From: Octopus vulgaris
Taxonomy: Eukaryota
Assembly: GCA_951406725.2 (NCBI GenBank)
Contig: OX597814.1
Location: 172,484,001-172,548,000, forward strand
Reading direction: 5' to 3'
DNA length: 64,000 nt
Shown here piece after piece: positions 2,248 through 45,205 of the stretch. Below the pieces are notes generated by a model. That model saw nothing but the letters and a program-made list of their open reading frames with translations. It was not told the origin of the DNA and did not search any database. A program made the translations under genes and the position numbers. Each line of letters opens with the position of its first letter. Positions within the stretch are counted from its first letter, which is position 1.

Positions 2248-2338
2248 TTTTAGCTGATGAGTACAGGACACTTTTATCTGCTGCAATTTTTGCAACTTGT
2301 AATAAAGCCTGTCTTTGTATGAAACAATTGTACTAAAA
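2248..2338 (+). ncRNA. Type I hammerhead ribozyme, apparently intact
   Basis: Stem I ttttag/ctaaaa; CTGATGA at 2254; stem II gtacaggaca/tgtctttgtat; GAAAC at 2321; palindromic stem III ACAATTGT; GUA cleavage triplet 2330-2332; (TA)n starts about 30 nt downstream. Confidence 0.88.
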
Positions 2339-2828: not shown

Positions 2829-3031
2829 GAGTGTAATAGATGAGTGTTAACCTTGTTAACAATTAACACGGAAAAAATAAATAAATAGTTACCAGGGTAG
2901 CAAAAATCTCACAAGTAAAGGTGTTGTAACTCCTTGTTTATAAAGGTAGAAACTTCGTGTTTACGTTGAATATTTTGAATAATATATGAATAAGTAAATG
3001 GAGTTTAACGCAGGTGTAATCAAATATTTTT

Positions 3032-3117
3032 ACTTTCGACACATGCTTCGAAAATTCCACTGATACTATTCAAAAGAATAAATGGTATAAACAATGCAAT
3101 CTTCTCCTCAGGAAAGT
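3032..3117 (-). ncRNA. Hammerhead ribozyme mirror copy with GAAAC changed to GAAGC
   Basis: Reverse complement of 3204-3289 except gcttcg for gtttcg, which alters A15.1. Confidence 0.75.
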
Positions 3118-3203
3118 GAAAAAAACGAAACTCGTCAAAAAGACATTTTAGCAAAATAAGACATTTTTGCTAAAATGTCTTATTGACGAGTTTCGTTTTT
3201 TTC

Positions 3204-3289
3204 ACTTTCCTGAGGAGAAGATTGCATTGTTTATACCATTTATTCTTTTGAATAGTATCAGTGGAATTTTCGAAACATGTGTCGAAAGT
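3204..3289 (+). ncRNA. Type I hammerhead ribozyme, apparently intact
   Basis: Stem I actttc/gaaagt; CTGAGGA 3210-3216; stem II gaagatt/aattttc; GAAAC 3272; stem III ACATGTGT; GUC 3281-3283. Confidence 0.88.
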
Positions 3290-3334
3290 AAAAATATTTG
3301 ATTACACCTGCGTTAAACTCCATTTATTTATTCA

Positions 3335-3365
<31 letters not shown>

Positions 3366-3467
3366 TCGGGGTGAGTACTTGATAATTATAAGCACCTGTG
3401 TATACCGTTTGGTGGTGTAGGTGGTGGAGTAAATTGATCAAAATAAAAACATGATGCCAAGGATTCA

Positions 3468-3545
3468 GCGGTACATATGTTTCGGGCCTTTATTAGACAG
3501 ATTTATAACAATGCATAATGTATGTCTGTGGCCTTCTTCAGCCAC
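3468..3545 (-). ncRNA. Type I hammerhead ribozyme (left-arm copy)
   Basis: gtgg CTGAAGA aggcc...ggccc GAAAC atat GTA ccgc; stem I with one G-U wobble. Confidence 0.8.
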
Positions 3546-3802
3546 GCACAACAGCTTCCACAAGGACATGTGTTACATCAAAAATTCTTGGTTGGGGATG
3601 CAAATCCTCTCATTCGCGTACGACATAATGCGGCAACAGCATAGAATTGAAGCGTCCATCTCTTTCTTCTACATTGAGAGAAGAAAGAGATGGACGCTTC
3701 AATTCTATGCTGTTGCCGCATTATGTCGTACGCGAATGAGAGGATTTGCATCCCCAACCAAGAATTTTGATGTAACACATGTCCTTGTGGAAGCTGTTGT
3801 GC

Positions 3803-3880
3803 GCGGCTGAAGAAGGCCACAGACATACATTATGCATTGTTATAAATCTGTCTAATAAAGGCCCGAAACATATGTACCGC
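3803..3880 (+). ncRNA. Type I hammerhead ribozyme (right-arm copy)
   Basis: Stem I gcgg/ccgc; CTGAAGA 3807-3813; stem II ggcc/ggcc extended by acaga/tctgt; GAAAC 3865; palindromic ACATATGT; GUA 3874-3876. Confidence 0.85.
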
Positions 3881-3937
3881 TGAATCCTTGGCATCATGTT
3901 TTTATTTTGATCAATTTATATATATTTATATGTATAT

Positions 3938-4229
3938 ATGAACACAATTGCAGCGTGGAAGGTGTTTGTAAGCCATTTAAGAAACACACAAAAGCCGTTC
4001 GATTCACTTCAACATTTAAGTTTAATTTGTTAAAATATTTTCGTCGCTTTAAGACCGCGATCTGTTCACTGACAAAAATCCGTGCTGCATCTTGTCAGTG
4101 AACATTTCGCGGTCTTAAAGCGACGAAAATATTTTAACAAATTAAACTTAAATGTTGAAGTGAATCGAACGGCTTTTGTGTGTTTCTTAAATGGCTTACA
4201 AATACCTTCCACGCTGCAATTGTTTTCAT
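3938..4229. mobile_element. Palindromic island (arms 3938-4075 / 4092-4229) with a variant-core hammerhead on each arm
   Basis: ~138-bp inverted repeat with few mismatches, 16-nt loop, TA-rich left flank. Confidence 0.92.
4092..4140 (+). ncRNA. Minimal hammerhead-like motif with G3-C8 core (GUGAACA); mirror at 4026-4075 on minus
   Basis: ttgtca GTGAACA tt tcgc ggtcttaaa gcga c GAAA atattt taacaa: stem I with one mismatch, stem II tcgc/gcga, AATATT palindrome. Confidence 0.6.
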
Positions 4230-4301
4230 TTCAGCACACGATCTCAAATCAAATCACTTGCTATGCAGGTACATCTCCATAATAGGTATATATGTATGTA
4301 T

Positions 4302-4650
4302 GCGGCGAACTGGCAGAAACGTTAGCACGCCGGGCGAAATGCTTAGCGGTATTTCGTCTACGTTACGTTGTGAGTTCAAATTCCGCCGAGGTCGACTTTG
4401 CCTTTCATCCTTTCGGGAAAGGCGGCGAGCTGGCAGAAACGTTAGCACGCCGGGCGAAATGCTTAGCGGTATTTCGTCTGCGTTACGTTGTGAGTTCAAA
4501 TTCCACCGAGGTCGACTTTGCCTTTCATCCTTTCGGGGTCGATAAATTAAGTACCAGTTACGCACTGGGGTCGATGGAATCGACTTAATACCTATGTCTG
4601 TCCTTGTTTGTCCCCTCTGTGTTTAGCCCCTTGTGGGTAATAAAGAAATA
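4302..4650 (+). mobile_element. SINE group A, tandem partial (4302-4419) plus full copy (4421-4650)
   Basis: Head repeated twice; flanked by the direct repeat ataggtatatatgtatgtatg. Confidence 0.9.
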
Positions 4651-5031
4651 GGTATATATGTATGTATGTATGTACGTATATATGTAGAGCAAGAAAGAGA
4701 GAAAGAGACATAGACAGACACAAAGTTCCACACAATTTCTGCTTACAAAATTCACTTAAAAAGCATCGTTTGGCCTGAGACGATAGCCGTTGGACATTGG
4801 CCAAATGTGCTGTGTAGGTGTACTGAACGCAAACCCCCGTGACTGCGAAACAGTCATGCCTTTATCATCTGCGACATTTCTTTTTAGATATTTACTCACA
4901 AATAAGATTCACTATCAGACAACTTGTTTCAGTAGGTTTTATCTAGCGGCCAGAAAAATTCTATTTTTAGACATGCCTAATGTTTGCGAAATCGAACGGT
5001 GTCAAATCCTGCTGAAAATACATGAGTCTTT

Positions 5032-14494: not shown

Positions 14495-14580
<86 letters not shown>

Positions 14581-14582
<2 letters not shown>

Positions 14583-14800
14583 CCAATTAAGGACTGAACA
14601 CGAAAAGCGAACAGTCAGCATGCTAGATATAGACGTCAAATCGCCATTCTCCACAAAGATTATGTTCTCAAATCAAACTCAGCACAGTTTGATTTGTGCT
14701 GAGTTTGATTTGAGAACATAATCTTTGTGGAGAATGGCGATTTGACGTCTATATCTAGCATGTTGACTGTCCACTTTTCGTGTTCAGTCCTTAATTGGTA
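14581..14800. mobile_element. Palindromic island in (TA)n (arms 14581-14686 / 14695-14800)
   Basis: 106-bp arms with about 3 mismatches, TA on both sides; carries a TTTGACGTCTATATCTAGC motif variant; no hammerhead core. Confidence 0.93.
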
Positions 14801-15218
14801 TATATAAATATTTTAATCTTCGGATTCTTTTTTAATATGCTAGACCACTGGTTTTAATTGATAAATATCAATTTCTACCCTTAATTAATTATATATATAT
14901 ATTCACTAATTTCAATCATTGGCCTGCAACAATGCTGCGACACTGCCTGGAAGAGATTGGTCGAATAAATGGGCACACGTAGTAAATTTAAACACAACAA
15001 CTATTCTATTAGGGTTTATCGTTGACGTGCTTTATGGTGTCGTAAATAAACCAGCACCGGTTGTCAAGAGGCGGTGTGGGGAACAAGCACACACACACAC
15101 ACACACGCGGTAGTATTATTATATGCACCCAAGTTTAAGATTGGGCATTCATCGTGTGTGAATATAAAATTGAAGAGCTCGGACTCAAGAAGGAGTACGG
15201 TTGGACATTTCTTTATTA

Positions 15219-44793: not shown

Positions 44794-45105
44794 CCCCCAA
44801 TTATTAATTTCACCTTTTTGGCTTTAATTGCTACAGCCGCCTATATTATAATGTATTCAATATATCTTAATATATTATTATAATATCTTATTGTATGTTA
44901 TATATATATATATATACTAAGCAATAAAGGGTTTAGCAACGAATTGCCTTACCACAGACCGAATTTAGAAATAGCAGTCAAAGAGTTATAGCTATTTCTT
45001 CTACTAAAAAGGGAGATCTCAGTAAAAAACACAGCAATTGGAAGGCAGACACAAACAGGTAAGAGAGAATGAATTGACGGCAATCTATCATACAATTTTA
45101 AGTTA

Positions 45106-45205
45106 TCTACGGACGCACGTTTCGAAATCAAGTTTTTAGGAAAGCATAAGAATTAAATATTAAATAATTCTACGTTACCCAAACTTCTTTTCTCTTCAGC
45201 GTAGA
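45106..45205 (-). ncRNA. Type I hammerhead ribozyme, apparently intact
   Basis: Minus: tctacg CTGAAGA gaaa...tttc GAAAC gtgc GTC cgtaga; 6-bp stem I; the island runs to (TA)n at 44915. Confidence 0.87.

What the first reader, a model, noticed from the sequence alone, without database searches (positions are those of the whole stretch)
3430..3918. Nearly perfect 240-bp palindrome with a hammerhead on each strand
Seen: arms differ by about two events, and both 3468-3545(-) and 3803-3880(+) keep CUGAAGA, GAAAC, ACAUAUGU and GUA. Inference: the insertion is very young. Transcription from either direction makes the antisense copy first and the ribozyme second, so the hairpin would sequester the ribozyme. 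That could make such insertions harmless to host pre-mRNA while producing long dsRNA.
Basis: partly seen in the sequence, partly recalled or inferred. Interest (0 to 1): 0.75.

Follow-up and report, generated by a model that had tools for sequence, protein, structure and literature searches.

The report
Head-to-head Penelope-like retroelement insertion
The palindrome is a very recent insertion of a Penelope-like retrotransposon into a TA repeat, made of two truncated copies joined head to head; each carries the element's own hammerhead-like motif, which would likely be locked in a long hairpin if transcribed, and this layout is already known for such elements.

Summary
Arms 3430-3670 and 3679-3918 flank an 8-nt loop and differ by one CpG transition and one 1-nt indel. 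Each arm has CUGAAGA...GAAAC-AUAU-GUA on the outward-reading strand.

The arms are two 5'-truncated 3' ends of a young, high-copy Penelope-like element (PLE), joined 5'-to-5' inside a (TA)n microsatellite. The true insertion is 3361-3918, because the left arm carries a further 69-nt "tail".

Full-length copies encode an 842-aa protein. It has a telomerase-like RT fold, a GIY-YIG motif and the Hydra-clade motifs DKT and CxCX5C.

In a sample of 34 loci:
- 22 copies have an inverted partner.
- 13 of those 22 are near-symmetric.
- 21 of 21 assessable pairs carry the tail on exactly one arm.

Inverted 5'-truncated copies, a one-sided tail, (TA)n targets and 3' hammerheads are all published PLE features.

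The hammerhead motif is non-canonical: A·C at 10.1/11.1, a 2-bp helix III, and no Rfam hit. Its activity is untested.

Sequestration in a -468 kcal/mol hairpin is predicted. "Harmless to host pre-mRNA" has no support, since no gene was found.

Verdict: an ordinary new member of a known kind. The strict tail asymmetry is a modest mechanistic lead.

The parts
3334..3360 (.). (TA)n microsatellite, left flank and target of the insertion
   Evidence: Sequence read directly. Copies elsewhere also abut (TA)n.
3361..3429 (-). 69-nt 'tail' of the element. It is AC-rich in element sense (CTCCACCACC...CCCGAATTTC) and is present on the left arm only.
   Evidence: It is identical to the sequence that follows TTGATCAATTTA in most other copies. 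In 21 of 21 assessable inverted pairs exactly one arm has it.
3430..3670 (-). Left arm: inverted 5'-truncated copy of the element's 3' end
   Evidence: reference positions 4437-4665, 99.6% identity.
3468..3545 (-). Hammerhead-like motif of the left arm. Helix I has a G-to-U change that keeps a wobble pair. The predicted cut is at 3472|3471.
   Evidence: and direct reading. The A at 3544 is private to this copy: the contigs that cover the place read G (table 3).
3667..3670 (.). TTCT, a 4-nt microhomology shared by the end of the inverted arm and the start of the direct copy
   Evidence: Direct comparison with the canonical upstream sequence ...CATTCTACATTGAGAGAAG seen in other copies.
3671..3678 (+). 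8-nt centre ACATTGAG. It is canonical element sequence that belongs to the direct copy.
3679..3918 (+). Right arm: direct 5'-truncated copy. It ends at the short 3' end TTGATCAATTTA and has no tail.
3803..3880 (+). Hammerhead-like motif of the right arm. Layout: helix I GCGG/CCGC; CUGAAGA; long helix II GGCC/GGCC plus ACAGA/UCUGU; GAAA; 2-bp helix III with loop AUAU; GUA. The predicted cut is at 3876|3877.
   Evidence: No Rfam match.
3919..3939 (.). TA-rich right flank, the rest of the target microsatellite

Best explanation
The palindrome is one insertion of a young, high-copy Penelope-like retroelement (PLE) into a (TA)n microsatellite: two 5'-truncated copies of the element's 3' end joined 5'-to-5'. 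Each arm carries the element's own hammerhead-like motif.

Inferred origin. It likely arose in a single integration event. Both cut DNA strands would prime reverse transcription, one at each of the element's two adjacent internal start sites. That would explain why one arm has the 69-nt tail and the other stops at TTGATCAATTTA. The two cDNAs, probably copied from one RNA molecule, would then be joined by a template switch at the 4-nt microhomology TTCT. That step would leave the 8-nt centre.

The hammerhead motifs are passengers, not a design. In full units the motif lies in the pseudo-LTR upstream of the ORF.

If the locus is transcribed, the RNA is predicted to form one long hairpin that buries the motif and would be a dsRNA substrate.
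For: Family and copy number.
- The arm has 48 scored matches from at least 1622 candidate places in the 2.8-Gb genome, nearly all 99-100% identical.
- Copies are variably 5'-truncated, share one 3' end, and abut (TA)n.

Coding part.
- Full-length copies have an 835-842 aa ORF.
- It carries R-W, ADKT, FDIASYY, GLYRDD, CNCICASEC (= CxCX5C), IY...YIG, CxxC..E and N..CxH. These positions are conserved in 30 homologues and match the Hydra-clade description (PMC8557442, section 11 read).
- The AlphaFold2 model has mean pLDDT 80.8. Its best PDB matches are telomerase RTs, led by 3du5_A at E 9.7e-9.
- The nearest Atlas clusters carry GIY-YIG, RVT_1, HTH_animal and DUF8422.
- Three of 8 near-full-length loci show the tail running on into the 5' UTR of the next unit, which is a direct pseudo-LTR. 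Four of 8 have an inverted partner.

Survey of 34 loci.
- 22 of 34 copies have an inverted partner at their 5' end.
- 13 of 22 have truncation points within 34 nt of each other; the mean under shuffling is 4.0, and 0 of 20000 shuffles reach 13.
- The junction sequences of the six pairs at the hot spot all differ, so these are separate events.
- 21 of 21 assessable pairs have exactly one tail arm. By my arithmetic, chance gives at most 0.5^21.

Literature.
- PLE insertions have inverted 5'-truncated copies, a tail at one end, (TA)n targets and 3' hammerheads (PMC8557442).
- A purified PLE protein cleaves and extends both DNA strands and starts reverse transcription at two adjacent internal sites that bound the tail (PMC11167929, main text read).

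Fold. Hairpin -468.5 kcal/mol against -13.2 kcal/mol for the motif's hammerhead-like fold.
Against: - Pfam finds no RT or GIY-YIG domain in the ORF, and a profile search of PDB sequences finds nothing. The RT assignment therefore rests on fold, motifs and weak hits in homologues: P0041 matches RVT_1 at E 4.4e-5, below the cut-off.
- The hammerhead motif is non-canonical. The best helix II register gives A·C at 10.1/11.1, or an extra base on each side. My own descriptor missed it and Rfam gives nothing.
- All 97 family hits in the loci fetched up to (some genomic places are present twice) are nearly identical there, so there is no covariation evidence.
- The one-template, two-primer step is inference. 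The in vitro study saw no difference in start sites between strands. In asymmetric pairs either arm can be the longer one: tail arm longer in 5, short arm longer in 3.
- No read or contig was shown to span the centre at this locus.
- The survey used the best-scoring matches (40 scored of 926 candidates), not a random sample.
Confidence: 0.9

Rival explanations
1. Snap-back variant of the same event. A single cDNA, primed at the distal start site and so carrying the tail, stopped about 250 nt in. Its 3' end AGAA folded back onto TTCT 8 nt upstream and copied itself. The element's endonuclease or repair then trimmed the second arm at the short-end site.
For: The junction fits exactly a 4-bp stem with an 8-nt loop (direct reading). 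Near-symmetry at many different truncation points comes automatically with self-priming: 13 of 22 pairs overall, and 7 of 16 outside the hot spot. The Penelope endonuclease is reported to need the tail for recognition and cleavage (PMC11167929).
Against: The second arm ends precisely at the same short 3' end that single copies use: 3 of 12 singles, plus the short arm of every assessable pair. Under snap-back this needs an extra cleavage step. The 9 of 22 clearly asymmetric pairs need another route.
Confidence: 0.3
2. One reading: the palindromic form is favoured because the hairpin silences the ribozyme, which makes insertions harmless to host pre-mRNAs while producing long dsRNA.
For: The motif is thermodynamically buried in the hairpin. 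siRNAs from Penelope inverted repeats are documented in transformed flies (PMC3681739).
Against: 12 of 34 sampled copies are single arms and equally young. Ribozymes of this type are weak as monomers anyway (PMC4209133; PMC11167929). No gene was found at the locus. The same architecture occurs in PLE clades that lack canonical hammerheads, such as Naiads (PMC8557442).
Confidence: 0.08
3. A foldback or MITE-type DNA transposon with long terminal inverted repeats that inserts at TA.
For: It has a palindromic shape, TA-rich flanks and high copy number.
Against: Many copies are single arms with variable 5' ends. The arms continue into a 4.7-kb unit that encodes an RT-like, GIY-YIG protein. The two outer ends are unequal, tail against no tail. 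Junction points differ from copy to copy.
Confidence: 0.02
4. An assembly artefact, or a palindrome made after insertion by a replication template switch.
For: Short-read contigs of four public runs do not bridge the centre.
Against: There are 22 inverted pairs in 34 sampled loci with different junctions and a strict one-tail rule. A second, unrelated PLE family next door shows the same shape. The arrangement is published for PLEs.
Confidence: 0.03

Closest known systems
Hydra-clade Penelope-like elements (Craig et al. 2021, PMC8557442)
   Same: C-terminal GIY-YIG; DKT instead of DKG; an R-W motif; a CxCX5C linker; CxxC and CxH around the conserved E and N; insertion into (TA)n; a hammerhead near the 3' end; inverted 5'-truncated copies; a tail at one end.
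   Different: The paper calls Hydra elements generally short (<3 kb). This unit is about 4.8 kb because of a 2.1-kb low-complexity 3' UTR. The tail is 69 nt rather than 30-40 nt. The third residue of the RWK motif is A here. No phylogeny was made here, so clade placement rests on motifs.
Poseidon PAc of Anolis, reconstituted in vitro (Frangieh et al. 2024, PMC11167929)
   Same: Two adjacent internal reverse-transcription start sites that bound the tail. An AC-rich start region. A hammerhead just upstream of those sites. AT-rich targets. Both DNA strands cleaved and extended.
   Different: It belongs to a different clade. In PAc the start sites lie inside the ORF; here they lie about 80 and 150 nt upstream of it. 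The strict one-tail-per-pair rule and the symmetry of the arms were not reported in the passages I read.
Metazoan type I / minimal PLE hammerheads (Cervera and de la Pena 2014, PMC4209133)
   Same: Type I topology. Helix III of 2 bp capped by a palindromic 4-nt loop (ACAUAUGU is self-complementary). An extra base after A9. Location in the PLE flanking repeat.
   Different: The paper describes the G10.1-C11.1 pair as highly conserved. It is not formed in the best register here (A·C). Helix I is only 4 bp. Helix II is 51 nt long.
Rearranged Penelope copies with long inverted repeats that give siRNAs (Evgen'ev 2013 review, PMC3681739)
   Same: PLE inverted repeats are proposed, and in transformed flies observed, to be dsRNA and siRNA sources.
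   Different: No small-RNA data exist for this locus or genome in what I could reach.
L1 twin-priming 5' inversions (recalled, not read here)
   Same: A retroelement insertion with an inverted 5' part, made during integration, and microhomology at the junction.
   Different: In twin priming the inverted segment comes from a more 5' part of the RNA. Here both arms are the same 3'-terminal region with both 3' ends facing outward.

Membership tests
Penelope-like element (PLE) | Single ORF with a reverse transcriptase closest to telomerase RT | tested here: met
   AlphaFold2 model with pLDDT 80.8. The top Foldseek PDB matches are TERTs (3du5_A at E 9.7e-9, also 6zdu, 6usr), followed by retron, DRT and group II intron RTs. 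RT motifs FDIASYY and GLYRDD are present. Pfam and the PDB sequence profile were negative.
Penelope-like element (PLE) | GIY-YIG endonuclease domain | tested here: inconclusive
   An IY(x10)YIG motif with downstream R, H, E and N is conserved in 31 sequences. One homologue is named a GIY-YIG endonuclease by its source (P0083). Atlas neighbour clusters carry PF01541 in 26-50% of members. Pfam gives no hit on this ORF.
Penelope-like element (PLE) | 5' truncation, pseudo-LTRs from partial tandems, adjacent inverted 5'-truncated copies, one-sided tail | tested here: met
   22 of 34 loci have an inverted partner; 3 of 8 long copies have a direct pseudo-LTR; the tail is on one arm in 21 of 21 assessable pairs.
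Hydra clade of PLEs | DKT motif, R-W(K) motif, CxCX5C linker, no CCHH in the endonuclease, (TA)n insertion, canonical hammerhead | tested here: met
   ADKT, IRW(A) and CNCICASEC were read in the ORF. (TA)n flanks were seen. The list of features comes from PMC8557442 section 11. The hammerhead is present but not canonical. No tree was built.
Hammerhead ribozyme, type I (Rfam RF00163) | Match to the covariance model | tested here: not met
   No hit at the gathering score or at E<=10. The neighbouring motif at 2248-2338 scores 20.3 bits, E 0.012, below the gathering score of 34.
Hammerhead ribozyme, type I (Rfam RF00163) | Core CUGANGA...GAAA...NUH with three helices | tested here: met
   Core letters and helices I (4 bp), II (4+5 bp) and III (2 bp) were read directly. 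The 10.1/11.1 pair is A·C in the best register.
Hammerhead ribozyme, type I (Rfam RF00163) | Self-cleavage | not testable with these tools
   Only contigs were available, not raw RNA reads.
MITE / foldback DNA transposon | Fixed terminal inverted repeats with target-site duplication and no RNA-type 5' truncation | tested here: not met
   Variable 5' ends, single-arm copies and unequal outer ends.
Non-LTR retrozyme | Head-to-tail tandem of short hammerhead-bearing units | tested here: not met
   The two motifs lie on opposite strands, and no tandem of the arm occurs at this locus.

The most novel reading that the evidence does not exclude
The strict rule 'one arm with the tail, one without' (21 of 21 pairs), together with the excess of arms truncated at the same point (13 of 22), is a genomic footprint of a concerted reaction. 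The two halves of a dimeric PLE protein each prime from one DNA strand. They start at the two adjacent sites of one and the same RNA molecule, and the trailing cDNA switches onto the leading one. If so, thousands of young copies in this genome could settle how Penelope-like elements integrate. The published work I read lists that question as open.
Probability: 0.35. Interest if true: 0.55.

Novelty: new member of a known kind. Interest (0 to 1): 0.3.

Why it matters
For annotation, a striking 'ribozyme palindrome' turns out to be a routine Penelope-like insertion. It should be masked as such, together with its neighbour at 2982-3339.

For mobile-element biology, this genome holds a very young, very abundant PLE family of Hydra-clade type. 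Its copies record the integration products with little decay. The one-sided tail and the symmetric junctions can be counted genome-wide and compared with the in vitro two-start-site result.

For ribozyme biology, the motif is a non-canonical hammerhead variant (A·C at 10.1/11.1, long helix II) kept identical in the large majority of the copies examined. It is a cheap candidate for a cleavage assay with and without the element's protein.

Tried and rejected
- Rfam at the gathering score on the whole window and at E<=10 on 2900-4400 and on 3785-3900: no hammerhead. The hits were spurious miRNA-like matches to the long hairpins.
- First pattern search with a 20-50 nt gap: 0 hits, because helix II is 51 nt. 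Corrected.
- Pfam on the truncated ORFs and on the full ORF: no relevant family.
- Pfam on five homologues: only a sub-threshold RVT_1 hit in one of them.
- Profile search against PDB sequences: 0 matches at E<=1.
- My own hammerhead descriptor missed this motif. It found three others at 2254(+), 3210(+) and 45199(-), against 0 in 100 shuffles.
- Covariation: not possible, because the family is almost invariant in the motif.
- Sequencing runs: no RNA holder listed, and all 24 runs are kept as contigs. I laid 4 of them. The contigs are short pieces of the repeat family. None listed bridges the centre or the flanks, so they bear neither on the reality of this locus nor on RNA ends.
- Host gene: the window has 20 ORFs of 130 aa or more; 10 were sent to Pfam and 0 matched. 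An intron-aware gene search was not done.
- Earlier notes of this scan: none for this genome.
- Amplification of one palindromic master copy was considered and rejected. The six pairs truncated at the hot spot all have different junction sequences.

Full report
**1. The observation**

The window has inverted arms at 3430-3670 and 3679-3918 around an 8-nt centre, ACATTGAG. Aligning one arm with the reverse complement of the other gives 239 identical columns of 252. Inside the arms there are two differences:
- A at 3544 where the partner implies G. This is a CpG transition.
- A5 (3580-3584) against T4 (3765-3768).

The string CTGAAGA-51 nt-GAAACATATGTA occurs at 3472-3541(-) and 3807-3876(+) and nowhere else in the window. 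Shuffled sequence gives 0 matches.

**2. What the arms are**

The right arm has 48 scored matches from at least 1622 candidate places in the window's own 2.8-Gb genome. Almost all are 99-100% identical.

In 20 fetched loci the copies share one 3' end and start at different points. Several have an inverted piece at their 5' end.

In most copies the arm runs on past TTGATCAATTTA for 69 nt (CTCCACCACC...CCCGAATTTC) and then meets (TA)n. The window's left arm has exactly this extension at 3361-3429. The insertion is therefore 3361-3918, lying in a (TA)n tract (3334-3360 and 3919-3939).

Longer copies lead into a 4.7-kb unit with one ORF of 835-842 aa.

*The protein.*
- Pfam does not recognise it, and a profile search of PDB sequences is empty.
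- It has 399 homologues at E<=1e-5. The best are 35% identical and unnamed. The named ones are from Argonauta hians, and one is called a GIY-YIG endonuclease by its source.
- One homologue gives a sub-threshold RVT_1 hit.
- An AlphaFold2 model built on 31 sequences has mean pLDDT 80.8.
- Its best matches among solved structures are telomerase reverse transcriptases, followed by retron, DRT and group II intron RTs.
- Nearest Atlas clusters carry GIY-YIG, RVT_1, HTH_animal and DUF8422 (a lead only).
- The ORF shows R-W, ADKT, FDIASYY, GLYRDD, CNCICASEC, IY...YIG, CxxC..E and N..CxH. All are at positions conserved in the alignment.

Section 11 of PMC8557442 (read) lists DKT, an RW(K) motif, a CxCX5C linker, CxxC and CxH around E and N, (TA)n insertion and hammerheads as the marks of the Hydra clade of Penelope-like elements. 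I made no tree, so the clade call rests on motifs.

*Unit structure.* Eight near-full-length loci were examined:
- In three, the tail continues through 46 nt into the 5' UTR of the next unit. This is a direct pseudo-LTR.
- Four have an inverted partner instead.
- One is a 5'-truncated copy in a TA/TG repeat without either.

In a tandem unit the hammerhead motif lies about 190 nt upstream of the first ATG (my count). The two 3' ends seen in insertions lie 42 and 111 nt after the predicted cut.

**3. How this compares with what is known**

- PMC8557442 (passages and section 11 read) states that PLE insertions are highly 5'-truncated. They are often preceded by an inverted 5'-truncated copy, carry a 30-40-bp tail often at one end only, prefer (TA)n in several clades, and have hammerheads in the pseudo-LTR.
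- PMC11167929 (main text read) shows that a purified PLE protein cleaves and extends both DNA strands. It starts reverse transcription at two adjacent internal sites in an AC-rich stem-loop, and those sites bound the tail. Its hammerhead cleaves only with the protein present, and public RNA-seq showed no ends at the cut site.
- PMC4209133 (passages read) describes metazoan type I hammerheads with a 1-2-bp helix III capped by a palindromic loop. They are thought to act as dimers and are weakly active in vitro.

The window's palindrome is this known arrangement.

**4. Survey**

I took the 42 places returned for the last 119 nt of the arm (40 scored of 926 candidates, all 99-100% identical). I collapsed six inverted pairs to one locus each and kept one of three 8-kb-spaced copies, dropping two. 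That left 34 loci including the window. I compared them with a natural full-length copy.

- 22 of 34 copies have an inverted partner joined at the 5' end. 12 have none within the fetched 6.5 kb.
- In 13 of 22 pairs the two truncation points lie within 34 nt of each other, and in 10 of 22 within 12 nt. Shuffling partners gives means of 4.0 and 2.8, and 0 of 20000 shuffles reach the observed counts.
- Without the six pairs at a truncation hot spot (reference positions 4418-4432, which includes the window), the count is 7 of 16 against a mean of 1.8. Three of 20000 shuffles reach it.
- The six hot-spot junctions all differ in sequence, so they are separate events and not copies of one palindrome.
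- Outer ends: in all 21 assessable pairs one arm has the tail and the other stops at or within a few nt of TTGATCAATTTA. The 22nd pair runs off the fetched stretch.
- Among the 12 singles, 9 have the tail and 3 do not.
- If arms were independent, 21 discordant pairs would have probability at most 0.5^21 (my arithmetic).
- In the asymmetric pairs either arm can be the longer one: the tail arm in 5, the short arm in 3.

*Limits.* The sample is the best-scoring set, not a random one. The boundaries are BLAST ends, good to a few nt.

**5. Mechanism**

*Shown.* The locus is a 5'-to-5' pair of truncated 3' ends in (TA)n. One arm has the tail. The junction shares TTCT (3667-3670) between the arms and leaves 8 nt of canonical sequence as the centre.

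*Inferred.* Both DNA ends primed reverse transcription, one at each of the two start sites. The strict tail rule and the symmetric arms are most simply explained if both cDNAs were copied from one RNA and the trailing one switched onto the leading one at a microhomology.

*Alternative.* A snap-back of a single cDNA fits this junction equally well (AGAA pairing with TTCT across an 8-nt loop). It needs an extra cut to make the canonical short end.

I cannot separate these two here.

**6. The hammerhead motif**

The core letters are all present. Helix I is 4 bp (GCGG/CCGC; GUGG/CCGC with a wobble in the left arm). Helix III is A-U and C-G with loop AUAU, so ACAUAUGU is self-complementary, as expected of the dimer-type motifs.

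Helix II is 51 nt. Its best register (GGCC/GGCC) leaves A and C opposite each other at 10.1/11.1, which is not canonical.

Rfam gives no match, even on the 116-nt stretch alone. A different PLE-type motif at 2248-2338 reaches 20.3 bits for RF00163.

The motif is identical in 62 of the 97 family hits that span it in my loci, and most of the rest differ by one base. Some places are counted twice. There is therefore no covariation evidence in either direction.

Alone, the hammerhead-like fold (-13.2 kcal/mol) is about level with the minimum-energy fold (-13.6). Within the whole insertion the RNA folds into one hairpin of -468.5 kcal/mol (+ sense) or -461.7 kcal/mol (- sense).

Sequestration is therefore predicted. 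It adds little, though, because a single motif of this type is not expected to cleave well.

**7.

- Youth: supported.
- Antisense-first order of transcription: correct.
- dsRNA: plausible and already reported for Penelope inverted repeats (PMC3681739, passages read).
- Protection of host pre-mRNA: unsupported. I found no gene. Of the window's 20 ORFs of 130 aa or more, 10 were tested and 0 matched Pfam. Single-arm copies are common.
- Public runs gave only contigs. They show that the family is abundant in runs labelled with three organism codes, but they say nothing about this locus or about RNA ends.

**8. Verdict**

The finding is real and correctly described. It is an ordinary product of a Penelope-like element: a new family of a known kind in a genome where such elements are very active.

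The quantitative tail rule and the symmetry of the arms are the only parts that go beyond the passages I read. I did not search for a prior count of them beyond.

Noticed in passing
window 2982-3339: This is a second palindrome with 175-nt arms and an 8-nt centre, directly left of the same (TA)n tract. It comes from a different high-copy family (at least 2192 candidate places, 98-100% identical). Its right arm has a cleaner type I hammerhead motif: CUGAGGA, G10.1-C11.1, GAAAC-AUGU-GUC, and a 6-bp helix I. The left arm's copy reads GAAGC instead of GAAAC. Several copies elsewhere also have partial inverted partners.
   Followed up: partly
window 3938-4229: This is a third palindrome with 138-nt arms and a 16-nt centre, directly right of the insertion. 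No CUGANGA core is present on either strand. In the laid contigs its word depth is several times that of the PLE arms, and many contigs skip its middle, as in a MITE-like family. Its nature was not determined.
   Followed up: no
window 2248-2338 (+) and about 45090-45199 (-): These are two further PLE-type hammerhead motifs with 6-bp helix I and 2-bp helix III. The first gets Rfam RF00163 at 20.3 bits (E 0.012, below gathering) and is followed within about 30 nt by (TA)n. Counting these two, the two in the finding and the one at 3210, the 64-kb window holds at least five such motifs.
   Followed up: partly
window 14570-14811: Another palindrome with 117-nt arms and again an 8-nt centre, flanked by TA repeats. 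It has no hammerhead core. The recurring 8-nt centre in three unrelated palindromes of this window is unexplained.
   Followed up: no
L021 6178-7113 (-) (G000:C28, beside a copy of the element): An ORF with fucosyltransferase domains: Glyco_transf_10 at E 3.7e-30 and Glyco_tran_10_N at E 1.1e-16. It lies next to a composite copy of the element and is a host gene fragment unrelated to the finding.
   Followed up: no
family reference positions 4418-4432 (window 3667-3680 equivalent): This is a hot spot for 5' truncation. Six of 22 pairs, two of 12 singles, and the inverted arms of three more pairs end here, each with a different junction. It may mark an RT pause site or the 5' end of a short RNA.
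   Followed up: partly
L052 and L062 (G000:C2:168730249-168737267, C1:120427037-120434055): Two copies extend about 13 nt beyond the usual tail end into sequence of the next tandem unit before meeting (TA)n. This hints at a rarer third start point.
   Followed up: no
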